63,210 nucleotides of DNA, from NCBI GenBank assembly GCA_044360285.1, contig JBIKKP010000002.1, positions 1 to 63,210 on the forward strand, in the 5' to 3' direction. How positions within the stretch are numbered: position 1 is the first letter of the stretch; each line of letters starts with the position of its first letter. The notes under the pieces were generated by a model, which worked only from the letters and a program-made list of their open reading frames with translations, was not told where the DNA came from and searched no databases. The translations under genes and the position numbers were made by a program. The stretch comes from Rickettsiales bacterium. Its GTDB lineage: Bacteria; Pseudomonadota; Alphaproteobacteria; Rickettsiales; UBA1997. Shown in pieces: positions 884 through 61,421 of this stretch.

Positions 884-1741
884 ATGCCAAGCAAACCAAA
901 AACCATCGAGATATTTTTGCCAGACGGTGATCCAAAAGGAATCAGAACCGCAAGCATCACAAGCAGAACAATCGAAGCTACTTACATACCTCGTAAAAGA
1001 ATCGATTACGCTCGCAGCAAAGACAGCCTCGCCTCACCTGGCGTTTATGTCTTGGCAGCAAATTCGCAAAACAGCTCTAAGCCCGAAGTTTACATTGGCG
1101 AAACCGAAAACTTCATCCAGCGCTTAAACACGCATCACGCCAGAATGGATTTCTGGGAATACGCAATTGCCTTCACTTCCAAAACCGGTTTCTTTACCAA
1201 AACACACGTCAAATATCTTGAATGGCTTTTTTACCAAATTGCTACCAAAGCCAATCGCTGTAAGCTTCACAACTCAGAGCAATCAAAACCAAAAAAGCCT
1301 CACTTAAGCGAATCCGTTGAGGCTGATTTGATGGATAATTTTGAAACCATTTCGGTTTTGATTTCAGTTTTAGGTTTAAACATTTTCCAAGAAATTGCGC
1401 GCAGCGAAAAAGATAATTTTATTTTTGAGTGCAAGAGTGGCAAAGGATGTTACGGAAAAGGAAGATACACCGAAGAAGGTTTGGTGGTTTTTAAAGGCGC
1501 TAAATGCTCAAAAGAAATTTCTAAAAGATTTCAAGAAACCCATCCTCCTTTGATTCGAAACACTTTGATTGAAGATAAAATCTTAGTTGAAAAAGGTGCT
1601 TTCTACGAACTGCAAGAAGACTATCCCTTCACCAGTCCATCAACAGCAGCACAAATAATTTTAGGCTCACCAGCAAATGGTTGGACGAGCTGGAAACTTT
1701 CTGACGGAAAAACTTTGGACGAAATTTATAGGAAAAATTAA
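884..1741 (+). CDS. GIY-YIG nuclease domain protein with DUF4357-type C-terminal domain (methylase-associated)
   Basis: ATG start. GIY-YIG-like core 'GVYVL..VYIGETENFIQRLNTHH'. The C-terminal tail 'FTSPSTAAQIILGSPANGWTSWK' is typical of DUF4357. The stop lies 11 nt before the methylase start. Confidence 0.7.
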   Translation: MPSKPKTIEIFLPDGDPKGIRTASITSRTIEATYIPRKRIDYARSKDSLASPGVYVLAANSQNSSKPEVYIGETENFIQRLNTHHARMDFWEYAIAFTSKTGFFTKTHVKYLEWLFYQIATKANRCKLHNSEQSKPKKPHLSESVEADLMDNFETISVLISVLGLNIFQEIARSEKDNFIFECKSGKGCYGKGRYTEEGLVVFKGAKCSKEISKRFQETHPPLIRNTLIEDKILVEKGAFYELQEDYPFTSPSTAAQIILGSPANGWTSWKLSDGKTLDEIYRKN

Positions 1742-1752
1742 TAAACTACCAA

Positions 1753-3744: not shown

Positions 3745-3773
3745 GCCCTTTTGATGAAGCCAAATACAGGGCT

Positions 3774-5219: not shown

Positions 5220-5988
5220 GCCAATAAATTTAAGCCAAACCCTCAACCTGGATCCTGAAACAAATATCGCTTACGAAGAAACTTTTAGAAAATATTTAGA
5301 CTTTATCGGTGACAATCCCCTTGTCCTTGGTGAGCGAATAAAATTCTCAAACAAGCCGATTAACAAAGGAGATCTTTGCTTTTCTGGTTTAGGCGGAAGA
5401 GGAATAATAAAAAAATTCGATAGGGATGAATGGAGACCTGGAGTTTGGCAAAAAGTTGATTTGAGTAGCGGTGAAATTACTGAAAACTATCTGATCTGGG
5501 TTCTGCAACAAAAACCGATTCTTGACTATCTAGAGCTTTTTAGCCAAGGATCTTTCATTTCATTGATTCCGAAACGGAAAGTTATCGAGCTAAAAATACC
5601 AAAACCAAAACGTGGTGCGGTTTACGAGATCAATAAAACTAAGTATCGCGATGAATACGATATTCTTTTATCAGAGCTGTCGAAATGCGATAAGAACGAC
5701 ATGTTCCTTTCGGGATCTATTCTGATTGGTTCAATAGCCGAAGGATTGGCTGAGGGTATTTTGCTAGATAAGGAAATCAAAAATGTCGAAGGCAAACCTC
5801 TTGGTGTGAAAATTATGGAGCTTGAAAAAACCGATGTTTCTGGTGCTTACATTGAAGCACTTAAGGAGATTAATAGGCTAAGAAAGAAGATTCACATCAA
5901 TCGACTAAGAGAATCCAAAATTCTTAAGGAAGACTTTTTGCGAGCAAAAGACAAGTTAGCGTATTTGATCAAAGAATTTGGTATTTAG
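5209..5988 (+). CDS. Hypothetical protein: half-TRD (HsdS-like) N-domain fused to a helical, HEPN-like C-domain
   Basis: I moved the start to ATG 5209, where ATGTTGCATAA overlaps the hsdS stop. 'KGDLCFSGLGGRG' and 'ENYLIWVLQQKP..LIPKRKVIELKIPKP' parallel both TRDs of the adjacent HsdS. The C-terminal half is helical and contains 'NRLRKKIH' (R-x5-H). Confidence 0.6.
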   Translation: MLHKPINLSQTLNLDPETNIAYEETFRKYLDFIGDNPLVLGERIKFSNKPINKGDLCFSGLGGRGIIKKFDRDEWRPGVWQKVDLSSGEITENYLIWVLQQKPILDYLELFSQGSFISLIPKRKVIELKIPKPKRGAVYEINKTKYRDEYDILLSELSKCDKNDMFLSGSILIGSIAEGLAEGILLDKEIKNVEGKPLGVKIMELEKTDVSGAYIEALKEINRLRKKIHINRLRESKILKEDFLRAKDKLAYLIKEFGI

Positions 5989-27253: not shown

Positions 27254-29002
27254 TTAAAACCCCGCCCCGATTTCGAAATAAACTAACGCATTTTCTTTTT
27301 GGTTTGTCGTCACCAACTGCGAACTATTCACACCCCACGCACATGTAAATGAAGCATTAAAATTATTACTCTCAAACGCCGTCTTCACCCCCGCACCCGA
27401 CATTCTGCCAGCCTCGCCGGTTTTTATTTTGATGTGGCCGTAATCATAAAACGGCTCAAGTTTTATTCTGCTTTGATAAGAAAAAGTGTTAAAATTTCCT
27501 AAATCAAAAGTGAGTTTATTGCGTAAAAAATATCCCGAATCGCCGCTGATATAATTTTCGCGAAATCCTCGCACCGAGTAATAGCCACCTACTGCGAACT
27601 GTTCCGAGCCAAAAAGTGTATCTTTAGAAATTTGCGAATCGAACTCACTGCCGATGGAAAATTTAAAGTCAGAAATTGAAACTTTTTTCGTCACCGATGC
27701 ATAAAGTTTAAACAATTCGAACTGCGCCTTAGGAATTGAAGCATCGATATTTTTATGATCTTTTTTTGCGTCCAGAACCTTTAAACCTCTAGAGTATGAA
27801 GGGCTAAGATAAATTGAATAAGTCGGAAAAAAAGATGAAAAAGCCAAAGCAAAATTCCCCACACTTAATCTTCGCTGCGAAGTTTCGATTTTTTCTCCGT
27901 TTAAATAACTTGCCGATTCTTTGGTGGTAAGTGTTGCGGTGCTTGTTATTCGAAGCTTCGAGTCGTTTAACAAAATTCGCTGTGCACCAAACTTATTTTG
28001 TTTAGAAAAGCCAGTAAGCGTTGTGGTTGAAGCAACACCAACATTTTGCCCCTTAAATTCACTGTGCGAATAATCATAAGAAAATGTGTTTTGTTTGAAG
28101 GGAATTGAAATTCCGCCAGAAAAAGATTTTATGTCTTTGACCTGACTATCATCATGCGCGTTCGTTGAGTAAGTAAGGTTAAGCGCATCATCAAGCGACA
28201 AAAAATTGTCAAACGAAGTTGAAAAAACTGCGCGCTGCACGCCGGTGAATTTATTGCCCAAATTGTCTTTTCCAACAGTTGCGCGCAGTGGAAATTTTTT
28301 GTTATTTTCGATGACGATTTTACTCATCCCATCAACACTGCCCGGCTCAATTTTTATTACTGCTGAATTTGACGGCAGGCGATTAATTTGGTAAATTCCG
28401 TCGTTGATTTCGTTAAGGTCTAAAACCTTGCCCTGCTTGCTTCCAAAGGCCATAAACTTTTGCATTTTTTCGCGCCAAGTTTCTTTGCCAAAAATTATTT
28501 TTTCGATTTTTCCCTCAATAATTTTTAACTCAAAAATGCCGCTGCTGATATTTTGTTTGGGCACGATGATTTGTGTCGTGACATAGCCCTGCGCCTGATA
28601 GAATTCATTGAGCGTGGCGATAATTTCTTGCAGATTTTTTGCGTCAAAACAGCGACCTAAAAATTTTTGCAGCAGATTTTTTTGCTTACGCGCGGAAATT
28701 TTGGAAGCACCGGAAAGCTTTATTTCATTGATTTGCCAACATTCTTCACTTTTTTTGATTACTTTTAGCTGCTGATCTTTTTCTTCCTCTTCTTCTTTTT
28801 TCTTGCGCTCAAAATCTTTAGAAATTGCCTCCATTTCTTTGCTGCGCTTAGTTTCTTCCAAGATATTTTGCTGATTTCTGATGATCCAATCTTGCTGATT
28901 TATTGCATCTGAACTTTGCGTTTGTGCGAAAACTGCTGAGGAAATGTTTAAAAAAGCTATGGCAATAAAAATTGCGCCAAGCCTGTGTTTTTGTGGCTTC
29001 AT
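27254..29002 (-). CDS. Two-partner-secretion outer-membrane transporter (ShlB/FhaC/HecB family, TpsB)
   Basis: I moved the start to ATG 29002 ('MKPQKHRLGAIFIAIAFLNISSAVFAQ' signal peptide). A POTRA-like segment 'FELKIIEGKIEKIIFG' is present. The C-terminal beta-barrel ends '..YFEIGAGF'. Confidence 0.85.
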   Translation of the reverse strand: MKPQKHRLGAIFIAIAFLNISSAVFAQTQSSDAINQQDWIIRNQQNILEETKRSKEMEAISKDFERKKKEEEEEKDQQLKVIKKSEECWQINEIKLSGASKISARKQKNLLQKFLGRCFDAKNLQEIIATLNEFYQAQGYVTTQIIVPKQNISSGIFELKIIEGKIEKIIFGKETWREKMQKFMAFGSKQGKVLDLNEINDGIYQINRLPSNSAVIKIEPGSVDGMSKIVIENNKKFPLRATVGKDNLGNKFTGVQRAVFSTSFDNFLSLDDALNLTYSTNAHDDSQVKDIKSFSGGISIPFKQNTFSYDYSHSEFKGQNVGVASTTTLTGFSKQNKFGAQRILLNDSKLRITSTATLTTKESASYLNGEKIETSQRRLSVGNFALAFSSFFPTYSIYLSPSYSRGLKVLDAKKDHKNIDASIPKAQFELFKLYASVTKKVSISDFKFSIGSEFDSQISKDTLFGSEQFAVGGYYSVRGFRENYISGDSGYFLRNKLTFDLGNFNTFSYQSRIKLEPFYDYGHIKIKTGEAGRMSGAGVKTAFESNNFNASFTCAWGVNSSQLVTTNQKENALVYFEIGAGF

Positions 29003-29033
29003 GGGGTTTATGGTTTTTGGTGTTTTTAGTTTT

Positions 29034-31190
29034 TTAACTAATACGCGACACTTCAACAATTTTTTTAGACATACGAAGTGCCGAGATAATTTCCTCCAAA
29101 TGTTCGAGATTTTTTACTTCAAGATCGACAAGAAACTCAAAATAATCTGCAGAGCGATTGATGATGCGCAAATTGCTGATATTGACCTTTTTCTTAGCGA
29201 TGATGCTGCTGACTTCAGCCAAGCTTCCGCTTGAATTTTGAACCACGGCCGAAACCTTACTGGCATAAGTTTCATCACCAATTTCTTCATCGCTTTTCCA
29301 GCAAACATCAACAACGCGCTGTGGCAATAAAACCAAATTGCGCAAGTTTCGGCAATTCTGATTATGAATGGTCACGCCGGTTCCGGTGTTAATGATTCCA
29401 ACTATCGGATCACCTGGAATTGGATTGCAACAGCCTGCATAATGCATGGCCATTCCATTCACCAAACCTTCAATTGGCAGCGAATATCTTTTTGATTTTT
29501 CACTTGGTTTCGATGTTTTTACTTGCTTTGTCTCTTCTTTGAAATCTGGGTAAATAATCTTCAAAACATCTTGGCGCGAAATCCTTCCCTCAGCGACTTT
29601 AACGCATAATTCTGGAATCGATTTTTTATGCAAAAGCACCAGAGCTTTTTCTAAAATTTTATCGCTGATTTCTAGACCTTTTGATGCAAAAAATTTATTT
29701 AAAATTGCACGGCCCAAAAGGTGATATTCGTTGAATTTTTCGCTGCGAATAAAGGCCTTAATCGCCGATTTTGCTTTTGTGGTGATAGCAAATTGCAGCC
29801 AGTTAGGAGAAGGCTTGCCATTGTTTGATGTGACAATTTCAACCTGATCGCCATTTTCCAGCTTCTGACGCAGCGGCGCAATCGCGCCATTTACCTTCGC
29901 TGAGACACAGCTGTTGCCAACTTGCGAATGCACAGCATAAGCAAAATCAATGATTGTTGAGCCAAAAGGTAGATTAAAAATATCACCATTTGGCGTGAAA
30001 CAAAAGACCTCGTTTTTATGCAAAACGAGTTTGTGATTTTTTATTACCTCGCTGGAATTTTCTGAATTTTCAAAAAGCGTGATTAGCTCACGAATCCAGC
30101 GATATTGCTCGCTCTCTTCTTTTCCAGCACGATCAGTTTTTTTAGATTTTTCCTTGTAGCGCCAATGCGCTGCAACACCCAGTTCATTGACTTCGTGCAT
30201 TTTTTTATCACGAATCTGAATTTCGATTTTTTTGTTAAACGGCCCTAAAATTGCCAAGTGTAAAGACTGATAACCATTTTCCTTGGGCGTGCTGATATAG
30301 TCGCGGAAGGTTCCAGGAATCATGTTGAAGTTAGAATTAATCGTACCCAAAGCGCGATAACACTCACCAATATCATTAACGACAATACGAAAGGCCATGA
30401 TGTCGTGCAGATTGTGGAAGCCGATATTTTGCTCCTTCATCTTGTTGAAAATTGAATAGAGCTGCTTCTCACGGCCCATCACCTGGCACTTCAGGCCTTC
30501 TGCATCAAAAATGCGCGTCAGGTCGGCGATGATTTTTTCGATGAGATTTTTGTTTTTTTCGCGTAGTTCGCCAAGCTTCTCGCTGATGTAATTGCGCGAC
30601 TCAGGGTCGATTACTTCAAAAGCTAATTCCTGCAATTCATCTTTAATTTTTGTGAGACCAATCCTTGCAGCAAGCGGCGCGAAGATGTCTAAGCTTTCTT
30701 TCGCTTTGCGTAATTTCTTCTCGCGCGACGGCAAATAAGTCAGCGTGCGCATATTGTGCAGCCTGTCGGCAAGCTTCACCAGCAACACACGAATATCTTG
30801 CGACATGGCCATAGTCAGCTTGCGGAAATTTTCAATCACGCGCAGCTCAAAAGACGCAGCTTCAATTTTACCAAGCTTGGTGACGCCATCAACCAGCAGC
30901 GCAACTTCTTCACCAAATTCTTTTTCTATTTCTTCGATTGTCACTTCCGTATCTTCAACAACATCATGAAGCAGGCCGGCAATAATAGATTCGCAGTCAA
31001 GCTTAAGATCAGCTAGAATTTCTGCGACAGCAACGGGATGAGAAAAATAGGGATCGCCCGAATGGCGTTTTTGATTGCCATGGGCATTTTTGGCGAAGAT
31101 GTAGGCCTTTTGAAGCAAGGCCTCGTCTGGGTTTGGATGGTAGGTGCGAACCTTAGCAACTAAGTTGGCGGCACTTAGTATGTCTGGCAT
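29034..31190 (-). CDS. spoT: Bifunctional (p)ppGpp synthetase/hydrolase (RelA/SpoT homologue)
   Basis: 718 aa. HD hydrolase 'HSGDPYFSHPVAVA..LHDVVEDT', synthetase 'RDYISTPKENGYQSLH', and TGS and ACT-like C-terminal domains. Confidence 0.92.
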   Translation of the reverse strand: MPDILSAANLVAKVRTYHPNPDEALLQKAYIFAKNAHGNQKRHSGDPYFSHPVAVAEILADLKLDCESIIAGLLHDVVEDTEVTIEEIEKEFGEEVALLVDGVTKLGKIEAASFELRVIENFRKLTMAMSQDIRVLLVKLADRLHNMRTLTYLPSREKKLRKAKESLDIFAPLAARIGLTKIKDELQELAFEVIDPESRNYISEKLGELREKNKNLIEKIIADLTRIFDAEGLKCQVMGREKQLYSIFNKMKEQNIGFHNLHDIMAFRIVVNDIGECYRALGTINSNFNMIPGTFRDYISTPKENGYQSLHLAILGPFNKKIEIQIRDKKMHEVNELGVAAHWRYKEKSKKTDRAGKEESEQYRWIRELITLFENSENSSEVIKNHKLVLHKNEVFCFTPNGDIFNLPFGSTIIDFAYAVHSQVGNSCVSAKVNGAIAPLRQKLENGDQVEIVTSNNGKPSPNWLQFAITTKAKSAIKAFIRSEKFNEYHLLGRAILNKFFASKGLEISDKILEKALVLLHKKSIPELCVKVAEGRISRQDVLKIIYPDFKEETKQVKTSKPSEKSKRYSLPIEGLVNGMAMHYAGCCNPIPGDPIVGIINTGTGVTIHNQNCRNLRNLVLLPQRVVDVCWKSDEEIGDETYASKVSAVVQNSSGSLAEVSSIIAKKKVNISNLRIINRSADYFEFLVDLEVKNLEHLEEIISALRMSKKIVEVSRIS

Positions 31191-45271: not shown

Positions 45272-46816
45272 TTACTTCTTTTTCCACGCACTAAAAACCA
45301 AAACCAAGCTCAGCAGCAAAACCAAAATTAATAAAGGCTTAAACCCATAAAGTTGATAAAGCGTTGGCGAAGAATTTACTTTTACTTCCACGTCAATCAC
45401 CGCCTCTTCATGCAACTCAGTTTTAGCAACAATATCACCAACCGAATCAAATAAAGCGCTCACACCACTTCCCGCAACGCGAATCAAAGGAATTCCATAT
45501 TCTACCGCACGCATTCTGGCCATATCGAAATGTTGATATGGGCCGGTGCTTTTGCCAAACCAAGCATCGTTGGTAAGATTTACAAAAAAATCTGGTGCAG
45601 CTTTCGCATCCAAAACTTCGCTCGAAAAAATCGCCTCATAACAAATTAGTGGACCAGCAGAAAATCGGCCAAAATCCACTGTTTTAGCACCATCACCGAC
45701 AGCAAATCCCTCGCCACCACCAGTAATTTTATCAATAAAAGGAAAGAATTTTTGCAGCGGAACATATTCACCAAAAGGCACAAGATGTTGCTTATCATAG
45801 CTTTTCACCACGCCTTTTTCATCAAAAACAAAAACGCTGTTCCAAAATTTTTGCGAAAGATCTTCTGATTCCATACGCAAAGCGCCGGTGATTAAAAAAC
45901 CTTGTGGCGGGACTGCCAAAGTCAATTTAGAGAGAAGTTCTGGATTATCGTCAACGATATAAGGCACAGAGGTTTCTGACCAAACCACCAAATCAACCTC
46001 TTCCAAACTTTTTGAATTAGTCAGAGCGATATGCTTTAAAAAATTTTCATAACGCGTTTTTGGATCCCATTTTAACTCTTGCTTAACATTGGCTTGAACA
46101 AGGCGGGCCGTGGCTTTTGGCCGTGCTTCGTTTTTTTTGTCAGCGATATTTTTAGCACCAAAAGCAAAAGCAAAAATTAACACCAGCAACAAACAACTGG
46201 CAAAAATCTTATCATCAAAAGCCGGTTTTTTGAGTTGAAACTTGTTAAGAAATAAAGCTGGAGAAAGCGAAACAAAAAGCGCTAGAAGGCTCAGGCCGTA
46301 AACCCCGAAGACCGAAGCTGTTTGCAGAAATTCCTGGTTAAACATCCAAGCATAGCCAAGTAAGTTCCACGGAAATCCGCTGAAAAGCGTGGCGCGCAAA
46401 GCTTCAAAAAAAATCCACAGCAACGAAAAAAGCAGAATTTTTTGGTAAGTTTTTTGCAGAAAAAACTTTGTGCAAAAGAAATGATAACTGAGCGCAAACA
46501 GCGCCAAATAAAGTGCCAGAGCTGCTGGAATTAAAGTCAGAGCAAAAGGAATAAGCCAGGCAAACTGCTTTGCATCAACCAGAAGAGCAATTGAGATCCA
46601 ATAAATTCCACACAAAAAATGTCCAAAGCCAAAATAAAATCCGCGCCAAAAAGCCGCTTTTTTCTGCTTTGCTTCAGCAAGTAAGAAGAAGAAAAATGTC
46701 AGCGAAAAAATTATTGCTAAGAAAAAGTGAAACGGCGCAAAAGCAAGAGCTCCAAGACTTCCAGCCAGGAAAGCAAAAAGGTTATTTTTCTTTTCTGACG
46801 TAAAATTCAAAATCAT
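45272..46816 (-). CDS. lnt: Apolipoprotein N-acyltransferase
   Basis: I moved the start to ATG 46816 ('MILNFTSEKKNNLFAFLAGSLGALAFAP'). The N-half is multi-TM. The CN-hydrolase domain has 'VVWSETSVP' and 'LICYEAIF'. Confidence 0.88.
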   Translation of the reverse strand: MILNFTSEKKNNLFAFLAGSLGALAFAPFHFFLAIIFSLTFFFFLLAEAKQKKAAFWRGFYFGFGHFLCGIYWISIALLVDAKQFAWLIPFALTLIPAALALYLALFALSYHFFCTKFFLQKTYQKILLFSLLWIFFEALRATLFSGFPWNLLGYAWMFNQEFLQTASVFGVYGLSLLALFVSLSPALFLNKFQLKKPAFDDKIFASCLLLVLIFAFAFGAKNIADKKNEARPKATARLVQANVKQELKWDPKTRYENFLKHIALTNSKSLEEVDLVVWSETSVPYIVDDNPELLSKLTLAVPPQGFLITGALRMESEDLSQKFWNSVFVFDEKGVVKSYDKQHLVPFGEYVPLQKFFPFIDKITGGGEGFAVGDGAKTVDFGRFSAGPLICYEAIFSSEVLDAKAAPDFFVNLTNDAWFGKSTGPYQHFDMARMRAVEYGIPLIRVAGSGVSALFDSVGDIVAKTELHEEAVIDVEVKVNSSPTLYQLYGFKPLLILVLLLSLVLVFSAWKKK

Positions 46817-48818
46817 ATAAAATGGTTTTTGTTGAAGGTGGCAGAGAATCAAAAATGTCTTTTTTCTCGTTGTTAAAGAGTTCGTTTTTCACCGGATTTT
46901 TTCTTTCCTGATAAATTTTTACCTCATTTTCAAAGCGGAAATTCTGCAAAAAATAATCGCGAAAATCTCGGTCACGAAGGTAATACTCAAGATGACTAAC
47001 CAGGCAAGAATTTCCAGTATCTAGCGCAGATTTTATTTTGTTGAAAATCACAATTTTTACCCGCGGATTTTTTATCTGAAGACGAAGGTCTTCAAACAAA
47101 TAATCATTCACAAAAAAAGCACCGCGATCGCTGCTTGGAAAAAGCCATTGTTGTGAAATGGCTGCAGCTGAGGCATTGATTGTGGTTAGATGAGGTTTCT
47201 GGTAATTGGTTTTTTCCAAATAATTTAACATTGGAAATTGGTCTGCAATCAGTGTTGAAACCATCAAAATGCCGTCATCTTTCTTTGGCGCATAGTTTTT
47301 TGCGTAGTAAATATAGGCATCAGAAAACTTATTAGGATGAGTCCAGGTTTGACTGCGAGTCACCGCATCAACAACGCTGCCCACATAGGCATAAAGCAAA
47401 GTAGAAACCGAGGTAAAAATTACAAAAACGAAGAAAGGTGAAAAAACTTGCGAAACACGACTAAAGATTCTTAGTTCAAAGAAGAATAGCGCAATAAAAA
47501 GCAGAAAAAGATCGTAGGCAATCAACGGCCATCCGCCTAGATATTTCAATACTGCAACAGCAATTGCAGCAAGTAAAAAATAGCAAAGAAAAAACAGAAA
47601 AATTCTTTTTTTGGAAAAGAATTTTTTTCTCTCAAATTCATCCAATTTTTTGGCAAAAATGAATGGATAAGTCAGCGCTAAAATCCAAAACATATTGATA
47701 AAACCACCCAGGCCAAAAATCATCACCGGCAAAACATCAAGATCAAAAGGCGGCAAAAAAAGCAGCGCACAAATTATAAATTTATTCTCACTAAAAATTA
47801 TTTTTTTTGAGCAAAACAAATCGAAACCAATTTTAAAAAAGCACAAAGTTGAAATGGCATAAAAAACAGCAACTTGGTCAATGCTGCCAATGCTTTCCAA
47901 AATACAAACGAGAGCTGATGCCAAGAAAAACGCGAGCAGAACCTGATCATCGCGACCAAATTTCAATCGCGAAAAAACTAAGAAAATAAAAGAATAAGGC
48001 AAAATTCTTGCCGCAAGATGTGTAAAAAGATTATCGAAGAAGACCTTGATGTTGTCGTAAGGGCCATAGGTTTTTGGCCACATCACTACAATAAATTCAA
48101 AAAATTCTGGCGTGAATTTGATCATCAAATTCAGATAAATTCCGCCAATAAAAAGCATCAGCAGCTTATCGATTTGCAGAAAAAATTTCGGTGATTTTTT
48201 TTGCCAAAAAAATTGCAAAATTTCGGCAAAGATAATGAAGATAAGGTAATGAGGCTTAAGGCACGGAATCAATCCCATCAGACTTCCGCGCGCTATAAAA
48301 TCTTTTTTAGTGAGGACAATTTTTCGCTCAAAAGAATAAGCGATATAGGGATAAAGCAGAATCAGAAGAAGGCTGGTTTTTGTGCCAAATTCACCATTTT
48401 GAATTGCATTTGGACGCAGAAAAAATCCAACAAAAAAGCTGAGTAAAACTAGATTAAAATGCGCCGGATTTTTAGAAATCTCACTAACCTGCAAAATTTT
48501 TCCTGACCAAAAAATCGACAGCAACGCAAGAAGATTTATGATAATTTCTGCAAGAATTATCGAATTGACGTAAAACAGGCTAGATGCTTTGTATTCAAAG
48601 GCGTAGAGCCAAAATGAAAGGGGGAAATTACTCTCAAAAAAATCACGATAATATCTACCGCCATCGGCAACTTTTTTTCCCAAATCAAGATAGGCTCCGC
48701 TATCAGAACCAATATCAATTGTTGAACGAAGAAAAATACTGAGCGCAAAAACTAGAGTACAAAAAACAAGTAAAAAACTTTGGCTTTCAAGGAATTTTTT
48801 TACTTTATTTTCGAACAT
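46782..48818 (-). CDS. Polytopic membrane protein, GT-C-fold (ArnT/PMT-like) glycosyltransferase candidate, paralogue 2
   Basis: I moved the start to ATG 48818, which has GGAGG upstream. More than 10 TM helices. The first loop 'DIGSDSGAYLDLGKKVADGGRYYRDFFESNFPLSF' parallels the upstream paralogue. A soluble C-terminal ~200 aa follows. Confidence 0.45.
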   Translation of the reverse strand: MFENKVKKFLESQSFLLVFCTLVFALSIFLRSTIDIGSDSGAYLDLGKKVADGGRYYRDFFESNFPLSFWLYAFEYKASSLFYVNSIILAEIIINLLALLSIFWSGKILQVSEISKNPAHFNLVLLSFFVGFFLRPNAIQNGEFGTKTSLLLILLYPYIAYSFERKIVLTKKDFIARGSLMGLIPCLKPHYLIFIIFAEILQFFWQKKSPKFFLQIDKLLMLFIGGIYLNLMIKFTPEFFEFIVVMWPKTYGPYDNIKVFFDNLFTHLAARILPYSFIFLVFSRLKFGRDDQVLLAFFLASALVCILESIGSIDQVAVFYAISTLCFFKIGFDLFCSKKIIFSENKFIICALLFLPPFDLDVLPVMIFGLGGFINMFWILALTYPFIFAKKLDEFERKKFFSKKRIFLFFLCYFLLAAIAVAVLKYLGGWPLIAYDLFLLFIALFFFELRIFSRVSQVFSPFFVFVIFTSVSTLLYAYVGSVVDAVTRSQTWTHPNKFSDAYIYYAKNYAPKKDDGILMVSTLIADQFPMLNYLEKTNYQKPHLTTINASAAAISQQWLFPSSDRGAFFVNDYLFEDLRLQIKNPRVKIVIFNKIKSALDTGNSCLVSHLEYYLRDRDFRDYFLQNFRFENEVKIYQERKNPVKNELFNNEKKDIFDSLPPSTKTILYDFEFYVRKEK

Positions 48819-50790
48819 AAACCTCCACGTCGCGCTCAATGATTTCAGACTTTCCGCCTGATTCGTATTTTTCGTCTTCACCAAAAAACTTTATCTGCTT
48901 TTCTGCTACCCTCACCTGCAAAATGCGCGTAAGAAATTTGTAATTTTGCAGAAAATTTTGCCGAAATTCTTCATTAGAAAAATTATTTTCTAGCACGCCA
49001 ACATGACAATTTGCATCTTCAAAAGCGTAAGTTTTTTCGACAAAAACTAACTTTGTTTTATCGCTGGAAAGCTGCAAATTTAAGGACCGCAGCGCATATT
49101 CTTTAATTTTAAAATCTTGGCTTTTGTCGCTAGAAAATAACCAAGAAAATTCTGCAAAAGCGTTGTCATTTTTTTTGCCTGCGTAAGTTCTAAAAGGATA
49201 AGAACCAGGAATTGCATAAGAAATTATCGCCACATTCTCGTCATTTTTTACGTAATTTTTTGATAGTTGCATCATCGCCTCATTAGCAAAATTTGGCGAT
49301 TTGTAAAAACTATCGCCATCCAAAATCGCTGAGATTTGTAAAAATAAAAACCGCGCCAAGATAATAAAGACGCAGCATGCACTTAGATTGTTTAATTCTT
49401 TTTTTCCGCTTTTTTTCTGATAAAAAATCACCAAAGCGGCAAAAATTATTAGCGACAAAATCAGCGCAAAATCACTTAGACCGGGAATAAAAAAGGCCCA
49501 GATATTTAATGCCAAAAGCAATATAAACGCCGCCCATTTTAACGAATTTTTTTGTAGAAAATCTTGTCGCAAAAATAAAATAAAAACTGGCCAGAAAGCA
49601 GTAATATCAAGAGATAAGTTAAATAAACTTTCACCATCAAACTGAAAAATAAAAAAGATTGGCAACGCAAAAAACCAAACTTTTTTCCAAACAAAAAATT
49701 GATTTTTTTGTGCAAAAAAAATCAGCAAAAAAACCAACGGCAAAGCCAGAGAATAAAGAACAAAAATCTGATCTAGAGCATAAATTATTTCTAAAATAAT
49801 CATCAGCGTGGCAGCAAAAAAACTAACCAAAAGTTTCTGCAAAATTTCTTCTTTTTTGACTAAATCGAAAAGCAAAAAAATTAAAAAAAACGGGCAAAAA
49901 AGATTATCTATAATCAAATATCTAACCACGCTTTTAGCTTTGTGGTAGTAGGACCCATACACTTCTATTAAGTGCAAAACATATTCATTAAAACAGCAAA
50001 AAAGCAGCAAAAAATATCCAAGCAAAAAGAACAGCGCGACAAAATTTCTTAGACAAAAAATCGCTAAAAAATTCCGTTTTTTTATCAGATTAAAAATCTC
50101 GAAACAGATTACAAAAATTCCATATTGCGGCTTCAGGCAAAAAAGTGCCGCGGCCAAAATTCCAATCAGAATTTGATCAATTTTTTGCAGAGATTTTTCG
50201 TCACGAATCTGGTAAGAGATATAAGGAAAAAGCAGCAACAAAAGCAGGCTAGACTTGGTGCCAAACTCGTTAAAAGGAAGTGTAAAAAAGCGTAAGAAAA
50301 ATCCGCAGGCAAAAGAAAAAATGAGCAGATTTAAAATTCTGCGATCAACAACAAGACGAGCTTTGACAAGAATTTTGTAAGAAAAATAAAGCGAAAAAAT
50401 TCCTAAAAAATTGAGTAAAATTTCGTAAGAAATTATTGTATTTAGCGAAAAAAACTTTGCCAAAATTTGCGCCACAACCGCAATAATAAAGGCGAAAGGA
50501 AGATTTGGTTCGTAGAAATTTTCATAATATCTTCCACCCAAAAGCATCTTGTCTGCGATCTCTAAATAAAGCGCAGAATCATGGCCAAAATCACGATTTG
50601 AGCGCAAGAAAAGGCTAAGCGAAACAACAAAAGCAACCGAAAAAAACGTAAAAGACTTCGCTGCAATAACGCGCTCAAAAAACGCAAAAAAATTGCCAGT
50701 TTTTTGCAACAAAAATTTTTCCAATTTTTGTCCAAGAATCAGCCTTGTTTCTTCAATATTTTTTTGGATTTCTAAAAAATCTAATTTCAT
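48805..50790 (-). CDS. Polytopic membrane protein, GT-C-fold (ArnT/PMT-like) glycosyltransferase candidate, paralogue 1
   Basis: 661 aa. 'DFGHDSALYLEIADKMLLGGRYYENFYEPNLPFAF' in the first loop. The architecture matches 46782-48818. Confidence 0.45.
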   Translation of the reverse strand: MKLDFLEIQKNIEETRLILGQKLEKFLLQKTGNFFAFFERVIAAKSFTFFSVAFVVSLSLFLRSNRDFGHDSALYLEIADKMLLGGRYYENFYEPNLPFAFIIAVVAQILAKFFSLNTIISYEILLNFLGIFSLYFSYKILVKARLVVDRRILNLLIFSFACGFFLRFFTLPFNEFGTKSSLLLLLLFPYISYQIRDEKSLQKIDQILIGILAAALFCLKPQYGIFVICFEIFNLIKKRNFLAIFCLRNFVALFFLLGYFLLLFCCFNEYVLHLIEVYGSYYHKAKSVVRYLIIDNLFCPFFLIFLLFDLVKKEEILQKLLVSFFAATLMIILEIIYALDQIFVLYSLALPLVFLLIFFAQKNQFFVWKKVWFFALPIFFIFQFDGESLFNLSLDITAFWPVFILFLRQDFLQKNSLKWAAFILLLALNIWAFFIPGLSDFALILSLIIFAALVIFYQKKSGKKELNNLSACCVFIILARFLFLQISAILDGDSFYKSPNFANEAMMQLSKNYVKNDENVAIISYAIPGSYPFRTYAGKKNDNAFAEFSWLFSSDKSQDFKIKEYALRSLNLQLSSDKTKLVFVEKTYAFEDANCHVGVLENNFSNEEFRQNFLQNYKFLTRILQVRVAEKQIKFFGEDEKYESGGKSEIIERDVEVYVRK

Positions 50791-57684: not shown

Positions 57685-58192
57685 CGAAATTATTTTAACA
57701 TTTTTCTTTCTTGGTAAAGCAAAAAAAGCGCCCGGAACCTTTGGCAGTATTGGCGCTCTAGCTTTTTGGTTTTTTCTTTCGCAGCTTTTTTTCAATCAGC
57801 AATTCTCAATAAAAAGTCAGACAATTTTTTGGGGATTTTTTTTGTTGACGATTCTGCTTTACGGAATTTTTGCCATTCCATTTTACGCAAAAAAAGTTGG
57901 CGAAATTGACCACAAATCAATCGTACTTGACGAAGTTTTCGGGCAGATTCTTGCTCTGCAAATGACTTTCGTTTTTATCAGCGAAAATTATTTCCAAAAC
58001 CCGCGTCTAATTCTGGCGCACCTACTTTTTTGCTTCGTTCTTTTTAGATTTTTCGACATAAGAAAACCGCTGCTAATTGGCTATCTTGACCGCAATTTAA
58101 AAAACAGTTTTGGCGTCATGTTAGATGACGTATTATGCGGCTTGGTTGTAGGGCTCATCGGAATTGCAACTATACATTTTTTTCATGCCTAA
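57671..58192 (+). CDS. pgpA: Phosphatidylglycerophosphatase A
   Basis: I moved the start to ATG 57671, a 14-nt overlap with dapE. 'APGTFGSIGAL' and 'FRFFDIRKP' are PgpA motifs. Confidence 0.85.
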   Translation: MKRINEIILTFFFLGKAKKAPGTFGSIGALAFWFFLSQLFFNQQFSIKSQTIFWGFFLLTILLYGIFAIPFYAKKVGEIDHKSIVLDEVFGQILALQMTFVFISENYFQNPRLILAHLLFCFVLFRFFDIRKPLLIGYLDRNLKNSFGVMLDDVLCGLVVGLIGIATIHFFHA

Positions 58193-59210
58193 AAACTTAA
58201 AAGCCTTCAGTTTAATTGAGCTTTCCATCGTGATTTTGATCGTCTCGATTTTGCTCACCGGCGCACTTTCAGCGACAATGTTTTCGGTGAATAAATCTAA
58301 GGTCAGGCTTAGCCAAGAACGCATGCAAACCATCTACAAAGCGATGGGAATTTTCTTGAGCAAAAACGGTTATCTTCCTTGTCCAGCAGCAATCACTTTG
58401 GCTAAATCAAACAGCTCATATGGCACCGCGGCGGGCAGTTGCTCTTCCGCTCCAGGCACTGCTTCTGGCTATTGGAAATCAACTGACTCTGACAGCCCAA
58501 ATCTTTTTTTTGGCATGGTTCCAACCAAGACACTTGGGCTTTCATCAGATTTTTCAGAAGATGGATTTGGTGGAAAAATTGGCTATTTTGTGCATAGCGG
58601 CTTCGCCTCGGCAACCACTTTTGGCAAGGGCCCAGCCTCAGTTAGCAGTTCAAAAAATTATGCCGATGACAGCAACTTGCTTCGCATCATCATTAAAGAA
58701 AAGCCGACCTCAGAATTACAAATCACCAACGATGCCGCTTTTGCACTTATAAGCTATGGAACCAATAAACTCGCTGGTTGGAACATAAATGCCAGCACAC
58801 AAAATGCCGCATCAACTGACGCAGAAGAAATAGAAAATAGCTTAGGAAGCCTTGATGCAACCACTGGCACAGCAACTTTCGACAACGTGCTTTTCATTTC
58901 TTCAGCAAATAGCGACTCTTTCGACGACATAGTTTTTTACAAAACGCGCGACGAAATGACTCTCGATTTCAACTTACTTGGCCTGGTTTCTTGCGACGAA
59001 GCAAGTCCAACACAAACCATAAATTATGGCGGCACAGATTACGGCTATACCTGGGCAGCAAGCAGCAGCACAAAATATGGAGCAAACGCTGCAGCCAGCC
59101 AAGTTTGTCCAACTGGATATACAGCTGGCGTGGCTCGACCAACAAAAAAGTGTGGCGCTTTTGGCAAGTGGGAAAGCGATGTAATTGAAAACTGCTTACA
59201 AAATCCGTAA
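58185..59210 (+). CDS. Large pilin-like protein 1 (prepilin-type N-terminal motif, Cys-rich C-terminal module)
   Basis: I moved the start to ATG 58185, an 8-nt overlap with pgpA. The leader is 'MPKNLKA|FSLIELSIVILIVSILL', with F+1 and E+5. It is paralogous to the next two genes. Confidence 0.65.
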   Translation: MPKNLKAFSLIELSIVILIVSILLTGALSATMFSVNKSKVRLSQERMQTIYKAMGIFLSKNGYLPCPAAITLAKSNSSYGTAAGSCSSAPGTASGYWKSTDSDSPNLFFGMVPTKTLGLSSDFSEDGFGGKIGYFVHSGFASATTFGKGPASVSSSKNYADDSNLLRIIIKEKPTSELQITNDAAFALISYGTNKLAGWNINASTQNAASTDAEEIENSLGSLDATTGTATFDNVLFISSANSDSFDDIVFYKTRDEMTLDFNLLGLVSCDEASPTQTINYGGTDYGYTWAASSSTKYGANAAASQVCPTGYTAGVARPTKKCGAFGKWESDVIENCLQNP

Positions 59211-60307
59211 TGAAAACAGCAGCAAGTCGTTCCAAATCTAGCTTCACACTCATCGAGCTTTCGGTGCTGATCTTGATAATCTCAGTTTTTTTAGCTGGAA
59301 CCTTCACGCTTCTAAACAGCAGAAACGCCGGTCGCAAAGTCACCGCCACCAACGAAAAAATTCAAATAATCTACAAATCGCTAGGAATTTTTTTGAGCAA
59401 AAACGGCCATTTACCATGCCCCGCCGCAATTAATCTTCCAATCACTGACGCCAATTACGGTATCGCCGCAGAAACTTGCGCCAATCCGCCAGCAAGCGGC
59501 TCGGGATATTGGAAAAGCTCGTTTCACGATTTCATTTATTACGGCATGATTCCAACCACAACTTTGGGTCTGCCCAGCGATTTTTCGGTTGATGGCTTTG
59601 GCAGCAAATTTTCTTACGCCATCATTAATGGGTTCACCAAGGCAGAATTTTTTCCACTTGACATCGCTTCAACTGATGATGGCAGCGGCAACCTCTATTC
59701 TACTTACACCAAAGATGTTGCACTTGGTTCGGGCTATCGATTTTTTCTTAATGATCGCAAAAAAGATTCGGCCGGAACTGTGGTAAATACTGCCTTAACC
59801 AGCGATGCAATGTTTGTTTTAATCAGCCACGGCGCCAATAAATCTGGCGCTTGGGGACAGAATTCTACTACACAAAACTCTCTTTCTTCCAGCAACGAAG
59901 AAATTTGGAATTCGGTCACTGGAAATATCGATTCTCCAGCTGATGGCAAAGCAGATTTCTACAACAGCAACTCTAACGTCAGCACGCCATTTCCTTTTGT
60001 TTTTTCCTCAACTGTTGACGGCGTTTTCGACGATATAATTTTCTACAAAACCAGAAACGAAATGATTAGCGACTTCAAGCTTTTTGGCTTGATACCTTGT
60101 GCAAGCAACGTCACGCAAAGCATAACCTACGGCGCGCCTTCAAACTTTAGTTGGACCGGTGATTTAAGCATAAAATATGGCGAGATCGTTCCCTCAGGCA
60201 ACGCCTGCCCCGGCGGCTTCGAAGGTGGACCAAAATATCCTGGCAAAAAATGCGGCGCTTTTGGCAATTGGGAAAGCACTGTGGCGCGGCCGTGCTTAGC
60301 AGGGTAA
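59210..60307 (+). CDS. Large pilin-like protein 2
   Basis: The start overlaps the previous stop (TAATG). The leader is 'MKTAASRSKSS|FTLIELSVLILIISVFL'. It shares the blocks 'LPCPAA', 'FDDIIFYKTR' and 'KKCGAFGNWES'. Confidence 0.65.
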   Translation: MKTAASRSKSSFTLIELSVLILIISVFLAGTFTLLNSRNAGRKVTATNEKIQIIYKSLGIFLSKNGHLPCPAAINLPITDANYGIAAETCANPPASGSGYWKSSFHDFIYYGMIPTTTLGLPSDFSVDGFGSKFSYAIINGFTKAEFFPLDIASTDDGSGNLYSTYTKDVALGSGYRFFLNDRKKDSAGTVVNTALTSDAMFVLISHGANKSGAWGQNSTTQNSLSSSNEEIWNSVTGNIDSPADGKADFYNSNSNVSTPFPFVFSSTVDGVFDDIIFYKTRNEMISDFKLFGLIPCASNVTQSITYGAPSNFSWTGDLSIKYGEIVPSGNACPGGFEGGPKYPGKKCGAFGNWESTVARPCLAG

Positions 60308-60318
60308 AAAATTAGAAA

Positions 60319-61371
60319 ATGAAAAAACCTCTCAAAGCTTTCACACTGCTAGAACTATCAATGGTCCTGGTTGTTGTTGCCATCATAATTTCCACTTCAT
60401 TTTCCGCCTTTAATAAAAGCAGCGCACAAAAGACAAAAATCAGCAAAGATAAAATTGAAGAGCTCTATAAAGCCTTCAGCGCCTATGTCAAAAGCTATGG
60501 ACGCCTGCCTTGCCCATCATCAATTCTGCTGACAAAAGGTAATGCCAATTATGGCAAAGAAGTCACCTGCAACTATAACCTGGGCTCGCCAACACTTTCC
60601 AGCCCGGTTGGAATTTGGCAATCAAGCAACAACAGTAATTTGATTTACGGCGGCGTTCCAATCAAAGAACTTGGGCTTTCGCCGGATATGGCTGAAGATG
60701 AATTCGGCAATAAAATTGCTTATTTCGTTTTGAAAGATCTGACCACCAAAAACACTTTCGATTCTTTAGTGAACGTTGGCAACGGCCAAGGCAACAGCTA
60801 CAACGCTGGCGATGCTGCTGACGATAATCGCATTCGCATTCACGAAAGAAATAACAGCAACGTAAAACGCGCAACCGCAAGTGCGGTTTTGGTGTTGATG
60901 AGCTATGGCGCCAACGGCTTTTGCGCCTATCCAAAAAATTCTGCGACCAGAAATGCTTCTGCAACTGACGCCGACGAAGCCTTTAACTGCGCGCCTTACT
61001 CAACTTCCGGCACTTCCAACTTTTACAATTACAACTATTCAAGCAGCCTCTTTCCATTCATGGCGCAATCAAATAGCGACGCTTTTGACGACATCGTTCT
61101 TTTCAAAAGCAGGCAGCAACTTGTTAACGATTCTAAATACTTTCCAACCCCCGCCTGCAGCGAAGATTTTTTTGAAATCATCACTTACGGCGCCACAACA
61201 AAAACTTATTACTGGCGCGGCGATTCAACTTTAGGTGAAGAAGACCTTGGCGTTTCAGCCACCGCCTGCCCTTCTGGTTATAATTCTGGTGCTTACGCCG
61301 GCCCAACAAAAAAATGCGGCGAACTACGTAGATGGCGCAGCGGCGTGGATAGCGGGTGCGTGGAGAATTAA
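60319..61371 (+). CDS. Large pilin-like protein 3
   Basis: The leader is 'MKKPLKA|FTLLELSMVLVVVAIII'. It shares the blocks 'LPCPSS', 'FDDIVLFKSR' and 'KKCGELRRWRS'. Confidence 0.65.
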   Translation: MKKPLKAFTLLELSMVLVVVAIIISTSFSAFNKSSAQKTKISKDKIEELYKAFSAYVKSYGRLPCPSSILLTKGNANYGKEVTCNYNLGSPTLSSPVGIWQSSNNSNLIYGGVPIKELGLSPDMAEDEFGNKIAYFVLKDLTTKNTFDSLVNVGNGQGNSYNAGDAADDNRIRIHERNNSNVKRATASAVLVLMSYGANGFCAYPKNSATRNASATDADEAFNCAPYSTSGTSNFYNYNYSSSLFPFMAQSNSDAFDDIVLFKSRQQLVNDSKYFPTPACSEDFFEIITYGATTKTYYWRGDSTLGEEDLGVSATACPSGYNSGAYAGPTKKCGELRRWRSGVDSGCVEN

Positions 61372-61399: not shown

Positions 61400-61421
61400 G
61401 GCGGGGTTGTAAAACCCGCCC
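61400..61421. repeat. Family-2 hairpin (opposite orientation) downstream of the pilin-like genes
   Basis: GGCGGGGTTGTAAAACCCGCCC. The reverse complement of the surrounding sequence (TTCAATGCTTGGGCGGG...) resembles 45211-45242. Confidence 0.7.

What the first reader, a model, noticed from the sequence alone, without database searches (positions are those of the whole stretch)
58185..61371. Three tandem ~350-aa pilin-like paralogues with a non-glycine residue at the prepilin cleavage site and no pilus machinery nearby
All three start with a short basic leader followed by F-(S/T)-L-(I/L)-E-L-S and a hydrophobic helix. Phe at +1 and Glu at +5 match type IV pilins and pseudopilins. The -1 residue, however, is Ala, Ser and Ala (KA|F, SS|F, KA|F) instead of the near-invariant Gly. 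The proteins are 2-3 times longer than ordinary pilins. They share conserved blocks: '(Y/H/R)LPCP(A/S)(A/S)', 'G(M/G)(V/I)P...LGL(S/P).D...D.FG.K..Y', 'L(I/M)S(Y/H)G.N' and 'FDDI(V/I).(Y/F)K(T/S)R'. The genes are tightly packed (TAATG overlap and an 11-nt gap) directly behind dapE-pgpA and ahead of nuoH. No pilB/C/D/M-Q or gsp genes occur in the window.
Basis: partly seen in the sequence, partly recalled or inferred. Interest (0 to 1): 0.7.

Follow-up and report, generated by a model that had tools for sequence, protein, structure and literature searches.

The report
Tandem alanine-site type IV pilin genes
Three neighbouring genes encode large pilin-like proteins from a big, unstudied family found in freshwater Rickettsiales-like bacteria; the alanine at their predicted cleavage site and their distance from pilus-assembly genes are normal for this family, so the finding is real but fairly ordinary.

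Summary
Three co-oriented genes (58185-59210, 59210-60307, 60319-61371) encode 341, 365 and 350 aa paralogues. Each has a short basic leader, Ala/Ser/Ala at -1, Phe at +1 and Glu at +5. All three are under purifying selection.

The two features called odd are not odd. In 162 relatives the -1 residue is Ala in 147, Gly in 14 and Ser in 1, and Gly and Ala copies sit in the same arrays. Published work states that PilD cleaves after Gly or Ala.

Assembly genes are absent from the window and from every array flank examined. They are scattered singly in related genomes. A PilT-family ATPase lies about 20 kb from a family member on one contig of a close relative. PilT occurs in 21 of 30 family-bearing assemblies and PilB in at least 4. 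Published tables list PilB, PilC, PilD and an MshL-type secretin in Gamibacteraceae genomes, two of which carry the family.

The family is large (1,781 clusters at E<=1e-30) and only generically annotated. Its head matches no solved structure. Its C-terminal 4-Cys domain resembles sushi/CCP modules only weakly.

Best reading: polymerising, probably adhesive, modular type IV pilins. PilD was not verified in the source genome.

The parts
58185..59210 (+). Gene A, 341-aa pilin-like protein. The ATG at 58185 is preferred over the upstream TTG at 58164.
   Evidence: ORF. The orthologue P0009 starts MPKNLRAFSLIELS. N_methyl scores 24.2 bits and TIGR02532 22 bits, both above cut-off. dN/dS is 0.15. 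AF2 model: pLDDT 83.7, pTM 0.78.
58185..58205 (+). Leader peptide of A (MPKNLKA). The predicted prepilin-peptidase cut is after Ala7, so mature Phe1 starts at 58206.
   Evidence: Motif position and sequence. Cleavage is inferred, not shown.
59210..60307 (+). Gene B, 365-aa paralogue, overlapping A by one base (TAATG).
   Evidence: It is 46% identical to A. N_methyl scores 15 bits, below the cut-off. The orthologue P0001 is 85% identical in the same synteny. dN/dS is 0.15.
59210..59242 (+). Leader peptide of B (MKTAASRSKSS), with Ser at -1. Mature Phe starts at 59243.
   Evidence: The orthologue P0001 also has Ser at -1.
60319..61371 (+). Gene C, 350-aa paralogue, 11 nt after B.
   Evidence: It is 39-41% identical to A. 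TIGR02532 scores 19.8 bits, above the cut-off. dN/dS is 0.085.
60319..60339 (+). Leader peptide of C (MKKPLKA), with Ala at -1. Mature Phe starts at 60340.
58212..58367 (+). The alpha-1 helix of A (residues 10-61), the pilin polymerisation helix. It ends in the invariant LPCP motif.
   Evidence: AF2 secondary structure H10-61. hhalign to E. coli GspG gives 92% probability over residues 2-66. The PDB profile search hits type IV pilins over this stretch only.
58968..59207 (+). C-terminal four-cysteine beta domain of A (residues 262-341). The equivalent regions are B 60074-60304 and C 61132-61368.
   Evidence: Invariant C270, C308, C323 and C337 and nearly invariant W329. AF2 domain model has pLDDT 79.8. 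Top Foldseek hits are CCP/sushi modules but weak (E 0.2-5). Pfam HRM and Sushi are sub-threshold.

Best explanation
The three genes encode paralogous type IV pilin-class subunits (proteins with a class III signal peptide) of a large, uncharacterised family. The family is typical of freshwater Rickettsiales-like bacteria of the Gamibacteraceae and related lineages.

Shown:
- Each protein has a short basic leader, a small residue at -1 (Ala or Ser here; Ala in about 91% of the family), Phe at +1 and Glu at +5.
- Each has a roughly 52-residue N-terminal helix, a cysteine-stabilised beta-rich head and a C-terminal four-cysteine module.
- The genes are under purifying selection but diverge far faster than their flanking genes.
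- Related genomes carry PilT and PilB as scattered single genes.

Inferred:
- A PilD-type prepilin peptidase encoded elsewhere in the genome cuts after Ala/Ser -1.
- The PilB ATPase with PilC extracts the mature subunits from the inner membrane by their hydrophobic helix and polymerises them. Glu5 pairs with the neighbouring subunit's N-terminus.
- The filament exits through an MshL-type secretin, and PilT retracts it.
- The bulky heads and C-terminal Cys-rich modules decorate the fibre and probably bind a host or prey surface.
- The tandem paralogues provide alternative or co-polymerising subunits.
For: - Motif and profile matches.
- AF2 model with helix 10-61: pLDDT 83.7.
- Family-wide conservation of the site: -1 is Ala 147, Gly 14, Ser 1; +1 is Phe 124, Tyr 38; only three sequences listed lack Glu at +5. 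Only small residues occur at -1, and Gly and Ala sit in the same arrays (L007, L021). This is what a peptidase site under selection looks like.
- Literature: PilD cleaves at glycine or alanine, and verified pilins often lie outside assembly operons (PMC3244431).
- Distant family members sit directly in T4P clusters: P0030 and a second relative follow MshE-like ATPase and T2SSF genes in L037, and others lie near pilB-pilC in L225 and L230.
- A PilT/PilU ATPase (TIGR01420, 439.8 bits against a cut-off of 319) lies about 20 kb from a family member on contig CAMCMF010000005.1. That contig's PPDK is 87% identical to the window's.
- PilT orthologues occur in 21 of 30 family-bearing assemblies. PilB occurs in at least 4.
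- PilB, PilC, PilD (K02654) and an MshL-like secretin are listed for all four Gamibacteraceae genomes, including UBA2645 and RIFCSPLOWO2_01_FULL_40_26 (PMC9352585 Suppl. Data 4). Those two genomes carry family members (L013, L017).
- Purifying selection: dN/dS 0.09-0.15.
- Fast turnover in a fixed syntenic slot: paralogues are at most 49% identical where dapE is 75-79%. This fits surface exposure.
- Modular relatives carry lectin-type modules: Laminin_G_3 + DUF2341, and Gly_rich_2.
Against: - No prepilin peptidase, PilC or secretin could be checked in the window's own genome. I did not reach PilD directly in any family-bearing assembly.
- B is below the curated cut-offs of both N-terminal models.
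- The head has no significant structural or sequence match to any solved pilin. Foldseek gives no hit below E 0.5, and pilin hits cover the helix only.
- At 340-365 aa the proteins are large for a major pilin.
- No experiment shows cleavage, methylation or filament formation.
Confidence: 0.66

Rival explanations
1. They are pseudopilin-like or bindosome-like proteins. They are processed by PilD but form only a short periplasmic or cell-surface stub. The stub drives secretion or displays binding domains; there is no long adhesive, retractile pilus.
For: - The end of alpha-1 resembles GspG/T2SSG (weak T2SSG hits in distant members).
- By eye, the motifs D..D.FG.K..Y, S.G.N and FDDI recall the GspG motifs DPWG..Y, S.G.DG and DDI. 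This is a lead, not a test.
- Public pipelines name relatives 'type II secretion system protein' or 'pseudopilin PulG'.
- The secretin reported in the lineage is of the MshL/GspD type, and no PilMNOPQ are listed.
Against: - No T2SSG or GspG model covers the head: TIGR01710 scores 15-17 bits against a cut-off of 88.85, over the helix only.
- There are no gsp genes.
- A PilT retraction ATPase is widespread in the same assemblies. That points to a dynamic type IVa-like pilus.
Confidence: 0.17
2. They are uncleaved bitopic inner-membrane proteins. The pilin-like segment is only a signal anchor, and the large domain works in the periplasm.
For: - Cleavage is unproven.
- Ala or Ser at -1 is a poorer substrate than Gly for some peptidases (own knowledge of P. 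aeruginosa PilA mutagenesis; not checked here).
- No peptidase was found near any array.
Against: A plain anchor would not need the restriction to Gly/Ala/Ser at -1, Phe/Tyr at +1 and a near-fixed Glu at +5 across more than 160 sequences. PilD is reported in genomes that carry the family. Distant members are embedded in T4P clusters.
Confidence: 0.1
3. They are ordinary Sec-secreted proteins. The hydrophobic N-terminus is a type I signal peptide removed by signal peptidase I (for example after ALSA in protein A).
For: Protein A has an A-L-S-A stretch after the hydrophobic segment.
Against: That site is not conserved in B, C or the family. A charged Glu inside the hydrophobic region, and an uninterrupted helix to residue 61, are pilin features and not Sec features.
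Confidence: 0.03

Closest known systems
Type IVa pilins (PilA/PilE class; Pfam PF07963 N_methyl, TIGR02532)
   Same: Short basic leader, Phe at +1, Glu at +5, a hydrophobic alpha-1N, a roughly 50-residue alpha-1, and a beta-rich head with disulfide. PilB and PilT ATPases are present in related genomes.
   Different: Ala at -1 is the rule. The proteins are 2-3 times longer. The head has no detectable similarity to solved pilins. There is an extra C-terminal 4-Cys module. They occur as tandem arrays of similar paralogues.
T2SS major pseudopilin GspG/PulG (PF08334, TIGR01710)
   Same: The N-terminal helix, including its C-terminal 'Y..L..NG.LP' end, aligns (hhalign 92%). Loop motifs are reminiscent by eye.
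   Different: The globular domain is not matched by any GspG model. There is no gsp operon. PilT is present in the lineage.
MSHA-type type IV pilus systems (MshE/MshG/MshL; MshQ with DUF2341 + LamG)
   Same: Distant relatives lie behind an MshEN-domain ATPase and a T2SSF gene (L037). One relative carries DUF2341 + Laminin_G_3. The secretin family listed for the lineage is annotated mshL in 90% of its members.
   Different: No NCBIfam Msh pilin model hits the window proteins. The window arrays are not in such a cluster.
Modular type IV pilins of Streptococcus sanguinis (PilB, PilC), from own knowledge and not checked here
   Same: A pilin module fused to an extra C-terminal module that is presumed or shown to bind ligands.
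   Different: Different modules and a Gram-negative lineage. Here several similar paralogues all keep Glu5.
Naturally Ala(-1) prepilins such as streptococcal ComGC (own knowledge) and archaeal class III signal peptides processed by PibD (PMC4307647)
   Same: A small non-Gly residue is accepted at -1 by the cognate peptidase.
   Different: Unrelated mature domains. The peptidase of this lineage is untested.
Sushi/CCP and HRM short-consensus-repeat domains
   Same: The C-terminal domain has four Cys and a Trp in the order C...C..GY..G...C...G.W.....C. The top Foldseek hits are CCP modules.
   Different: All scores are below significance: Foldseek E at least 0.2 and TM 0.3-0.4; Pfam HRM at best 0.018; Sushi 0.26. 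This is resemblance only.

Membership tests
Type IV pilin / class III signal-peptide proteins | Short positively charged leader before the cleavage site | tested here: met
   Leaders are 7, 11 and 7 aa with Lys/Arg. The family median is 12 aa.
Type IV pilin / class III signal-peptide proteins | Small residue at -1: Gly, or Ala according to PMC3244431 | tested here: met
   The window proteins have Ala, Ser and Ala. The family has 147 Ala, 14 Gly and 1 Ser. Ser at -1 (protein B) is the least precedented.
Type IV pilin / class III signal-peptide proteins | Hydrophobic residue (usually Phe) at +1 and Glu at +5 | tested here: met
   Phe and Glu in all three. Glu is invariant in the 26-sequence alignment. 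At +1 the family has Phe 124 and Tyr 38.
Type IV pilin / class III signal-peptide proteins | Curated HMM of the N-terminal domain reaches its cut-off | tested here: inconclusive
   A passes PF07963 and TIGR02532. C passes TIGR02532 only. B is below both. 25 of 26 family members hit N_methyl at E<=1.
Type IV pilin / class III signal-peptide proteins | Extended alpha-1 helix of about 50 residues packed on a beta-sheet head | tested here: met
   The AF2 model has helix 10-61 followed by strands, with pLDDT 83.7. This is a prediction, not a solved structure.
Type IV pilin / class III signal-peptide proteins | Head domain structurally similar to known pilins | tested here: not met
   Foldseek against the PDB gives no hit below E 0.5, and pilin hits cover only about 60 helix columns. 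Pilin heads are notoriously variable, so this is weak evidence against membership.
Type IV pilin / class III signal-peptide proteins | Prepilin peptidase and assembly ATPase encoded in the same genome | not testable with these tools
   Only 63 kb of the source genome is available. In relatives, PilT and PilB are shown directly. PilC, PilD and the secretin rest only on PMC9352585 Suppl. Data 4.
Type IV pilin / class III signal-peptide proteins | Leader removed and N-terminus methylated in vivo; subunit found in a filament | not testable with these tools
   This needs experiment.
T2SS major pseudopilin GspG (TIGR01710 / PF08334) | Model match over the globular domain at the curated cut-off | tested here: not met
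   TIGR01710 scores 15-17 bits against a cut-off of 88.85, over residues 2-61 only. PF08334 is not reported for A, B or C. hhalign stops at residue 66.
T2SS major pseudopilin GspG (TIGR01710 / PF08334) | Location in a gsp operon | tested here: not met
   There are no Gsp homologues in the window or in the array flanks.
Sushi/CCP domain (PF00084) or HRM (PF02793) | HMM match at the gathering score, or a significant fold match | tested here: not met
   HRM reaches at best E 0.018 in 4 of 26 members. Sushi reaches 0.26 in 1 of 26. Foldseek gives E at least 0.2 and TMq 0.3-0.4. The PDB sequence profile search finds nothing.

The most novel reading that the evidence does not exclude
The near-fixed Ala at -1 marks a distinct substrate class served by a dedicated or relaxed-specificity prepilin peptidase. 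Some Gamibacteraceae are listed with two PilD copies. In this reading the proteins build the host-attachment fibre of extracellular Rickettsiales. The C-terminal module would be a genuine eukaryote-like sushi/CCP domain that binds protist surface molecules, and the paralogue arrays would diversify host range.
Probability: 0.15. Interest if true: 0.6.

Novelty: new member of a known kind. Interest (0 to 1): 0.33.

Why it matters
Type IV pili have been proposed as the attachment device of extracellular Rickettsiales, and possibly of the ancestor of the host-associated Rickettsiales (PMC9352585, PMC10847448). The subunits themselves have not been described. This family is abundant (1,781 clusters at 50% identity with E<=1e-30) and evolves quickly. 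It is a concrete candidate for those subunits. It also gives a natural data set of Ala(-1) prepilins for studying peptidase specificity. Beyond that, the finding is a routine pilin annotation.

Tried and rejected
- Chance or pseudogene: rejected. dN/dS is 0.09-0.15 and the synteny is conserved.
- GspG membership: the helix matches, but the head does not.
- Whole-model and C-terminal-domain Foldseek searches against the PDB gave nothing significant. CCP/sushi hits were consistent but weak. A PDB sequence profile of the C-terminal domain found nothing.
- Assembly genes next to arrays: tblastn with E. coli GspC-O against about 520 kb (35 related or context loci plus the window) found none. Eight Pfam-annotated contexts contained none either. 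The exception is the distant high-GC member P0030.
- PilD in family-bearing assemblies: phmmer and a motif regex with E. coli GspO, and tblastn with two PilDs from other Rickettsiales-labelled MAGs, over about 2 Mb of held loci, found none.
- The last large protein search, using a PilD from another Rickettsiales-labelled MAG (L204), returned only relatives at 54% identity or more. None was on a contig whose length matched a family-bearing contig.
- The PPDK search showed three close MAG relatives, then a drop to about 70% identity with Rhodospirillales-like genomes. The exact family placement of the source genome therefore remains an inference.
- A Sec type I signal peptide reading was considered and rejected.
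- No convincing promoter or terminator was found inside the block.
Full report
**Observation.** The three ORFs exist exactly as described. A runs from 58185 (ATG; an upstream TTG at 58164 is less likely) to 59210. B runs from 59210 to 60307. C runs from 60319 to 61371. All are on the + strand. A's start overlaps the end of pgpA. A and B share TAATG. B and C are 11 nt apart. nuoH begins 164 nt after C.

The N-termini are KA|FSLIELS, SS|FTLIELS and KA|FTLLELS, and the quoted conserved blocks are all present. The prepilin motif occurs nowhere else in the six-frame translation of the window. Pfam N_methyl and TIGR02532 match the N-termini: A is above both cut-offs, C is above TIGR02532, and B is below both. 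Nothing else in Pfam or NCBIfam matches, apart from a sub-threshold HRM hit on the Cys-rich C-terminus.

**Real genes.** The closest relatives, on metagenome contigs L039-L041, have the same dapE-pgpA-A-B-C-nuoH order with 85-87% identical proteins. dN/dS is 0.15, 0.15 and 0.085. For comparison it is 0.08 for dapE and 0.04 for nuoH.

The slot between pgpA and nuoH is also occupied by four paralogues in L003 and L011, where dapE is still 75-79% identical. The pilin-like proteins there are at most 49% identical to A, B or C, and there is no one-to-one orthology. The genes are therefore constrained but turn over quickly, as surface proteins often do (inference).

**The family.** A word-indexed search found only 32 relatives. 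An exhaustive profile search of 1.84 billion cluster representatives found 1,781 at E<=1e-30 and 7,407 at E<=1e-10. Public names are generic: 'prepilin-type N-terminal cleavage/methylation domain-containing protein', 'type II secretion system protein [Rickettsiales bacterium]' and 'pseudopilin PulG'.

In one-genome-per-species contigs the family appeared in 31 loci from 30 assemblies. All are aquatic MAGs labelled Rickettsiales or Alphaproteobacteria, or obviously mislabelled. They form tandem arrays of one to five copies. Two of these MAGs, UBA2645 and RIFCSPLOWO2_01_FULL_40_26, are founding members of 'Candidatus Gamibacteraceae'.

**The -1 residue.** Of 162 family members with a recognisable site, 147 have Ala, 14 Gly and 1 Ser. 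At +1 there are 124 Phe and 38 Tyr. Only three sequences listed lack Glu at +5. Most cases my first regular expression missed also read A|F..IE... Gly and Ala copies sit side by side in single arrays (L007, L021), so whatever processes them must accept both.

The restriction to the three smallest residues is what a cleavage site under selection looks like. Imam et al. state that PilD 'cleaves at a glycine or alanine'. They also state that many verified pilins lie in operons without assembly genes, sometimes as clusters of pilin genes (PMC3244431). Archaeal PibD is likewise tolerant around the site (PMC4307647).

**Structure.** AlphaFold2 with the 26-sequence alignment gives pLDDT 83.7 and pTM 0.78 for A. 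The model has an uninterrupted helix over residues 10-61, a beta-rich head, and a separate C-terminal beta domain over residues 270-337. Invariant Cys66 (in LPCP) and Cys86, plus four invariant Cys in the C-terminal domain, suggest three disulfides (inference).

PDB sequence profiles match type IV pilins only over the helix. hhalign to E. coli GspG gives 92% probability over residues 2-66 and then stops. Foldseek of the whole model finds nothing below E 0.5.

The C-terminal domain was modelled alone (pLDDT 79.8). Its best hits are almost all CCP/sushi modules (C1s, beta2-glycoprotein I, CD46, factor H, C4BP), the EphA2 Cys-rich domain and class B GPCR ectodomains. But E is 0.2-5 and TM is 0.3-0.4. 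Pfam HRM and Sushi stay sub-threshold. The sushi-like reading is a consistent lead, not a result.

Longer relatives add Gly_rich_2 or DUF2341 + Laminin_G_3 modules, so the family behaves as modular pilins.

**Assembly machinery.** The window has no pilus, T2SS or Tad gene, and neither do the flanks of any array. There are, however, four lines of linkage to T4P machinery.

1. A distant, Gly(-1) family member (P0030) and a second relative lie directly behind an MshEN-domain T2SSE ATPase, a T2SSF platform gene and AAA/TPR genes in L037. Other distant relatives lie a few kb from pilB-pilC in L225 and L230.
2. Searching with the window's PPDK led to contig CAMCMF010000005.1, whose PPDK is 87% identical. 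This contig carries a family member (L022). About 20 kb away it carries a gene scoring 439.8 bits on TIGR01420, the PilT/PilU family (cut-off 319.1).
3. Orthologues of that PilT, 55-75% identical, occur in 21 of the 30 family-bearing assemblies. These include UBA2645 and RIFCSPLOWO2_01_FULL_40_26. The family-bearing MAGs closest to the window (CAMCMF01, CAZDLU01) have it too. Gamibacteraceae C-132, where the family was not retrieved, also has it.
4. A full-length PilB/GspE-family ATPase occurs in at least four family-bearing assemblies (TIGR02538: 524 bits, positions 2-562 of 564). There it is flanked by gltX, metK, apaG, tsaB and pgi.

In this lineage, then, T4P genes are singletons scattered among housekeeping genes. 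'No machinery nearby' is the expected state.

For PilC, PilD and the secretin I could not reach family-bearing genomes directly (the genome scans were exhausted). Schön et al.'s Supplementary Data 4 lists PilB, PilC, PilD (K02654; 1-2 copies) and an MshL-type secretin in all four Gamibacteraceae genomes. Castelli et al. report T4P components in the Deianiraeaceae-Diomedesiaceae-Gamibacteraceae clade.

**Mechanism.** The most likely model has six steps, all inferred:
- Sec-dependent insertion into the inner membrane.
- Cleavage after Ala/Ser -1 by PilD.
- Extraction and polymerisation by PilB and PilC through the conserved alpha-1 and Glu5.
- Exit through the secretin.
- Retraction by PilT.
- Heads and C-terminal modules exposed for adhesion to a protist host or prey.

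All three paralogues keep Glu5, so they look like polymerising subunits and not tip caps. Whether one is the major pilin is unknown. Rival readings are a short pseudopilus or bindosome-like display, an uncleaved membrane anchor, and a Sec signal peptide. I rank them at 0.17, 0.10 and 0.03.

**Comparison and novelty.** Functionally and by every testable N-terminal criterion these are type IV pilin-class proteins. They are not GspG, Msh pilins or any named minor pilin by model cut-offs, and their head has no known structural relative. Databases already label them generically.

I class this as a new member of a known kind. It is a large, lineage-typical, uncharacterised pilin family. Its alanine cleavage site and orphan location are normal. 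Interest is modest. It would rise if the proteins prove to be the host-attachment fibre of extracellular Rickettsiales, or if the sushi-like module is confirmed.

**Caveats.**
- The source genome beyond 63 kb was not available.
- The lineage assignment rests on relatives.
- PilD, PilC and the secretin rest on a published table.
- All structural statements are predictions.

Noticed in passing
window 46782-50790 (- strand): Two overlapping large ORFs (700 and 661 aa) have no Pfam match. They lie in the lowest-GC part of the window (0.32-0.36 against about 0.41). They could be island or effector-like genes.
   Followed up: no
window 884-5988: A DUF4357 protein, a type I restriction-modification methylase (N6_Mtase + HSDR_N_2), a specificity subunit and one unassigned ORF.
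   Followed up: partly
window 9347-12238 (-) and 27254-29059 (-): A 963-aa autotransporter and a ShlB/FhaC-type two-partner-secretion transporter with no TpsA-like partner identified next to it. These surface or adhesion genes fit the FhaBC systems reported for Gamibacteraceae.
   Followed up: partly
window 61400-61420: A GC-rich hairpin (GGCGGG-N9-CCCGCC) lies 29 nt after the stop of gene C, without a T-run. It is a possible transcript end or processing site between the pilin block and nuoH.
   Followed up: no
L043:5270-7158; L282:9980-11683: In related MAGs, pilT (overlapping an upstream TPR gene) and pilB are isolated single genes among housekeeping genes (mnmG and PPDK; gltX, metK, apaG, tsaB, pgi). 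The T4P system of this lineage is fully dispersed.
   Followed up: partly
L127, L139, L162: PilT orthologues, 61-73% identical to the L043 gene that scored above the TIGR01420 cut-off, are present in RIFCSPLOWO2_01_FULL_40_26, UBA2645 and C-132. The part of Schön et al. Suppl. Data 4 that I read shows no PilT family in Gamibacteraceae. This may be a clustering or annotation difference, and later table rows were not read.
   Followed up: no
L033, L034, L042 and the context returned: Arrays recur in the context TrbI(VirB10) - Kinase-PPPase - sigma54-type response regulator - NTP_transferase - FabD - [pilin array]. In L042 a hybrid histidine kinase sits directly upstream. A regulatory link to the sigma54 regulator (PilR-like?) was not tested.
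   Followed up: no
L009:2408-3040: One array member has lost the prepilin motif (…KSYRVIGNNIDLSIAV…) and is short. It is probably a decaying copy, which fits rapid turnover in the arrays.
   Followed up: no
L203-L271 (pilB-pilC loci, including Mitibacteraceae UBA6178): Other Rickettsiales-labelled MAGs keep pilB-pilC adjacent, with PilT/PilU nearby and, in seven loci, a GspO/PilD-like match within 10 kb (a full 254-257 aa PilD ORF was read in two, L204 and L214). Pilin-like ORFs there have both Ala (7) and Gly (5) at -1. Schön et al. list up to 57 pilin-like genes per genome in these basal families.
   Followed up: partly
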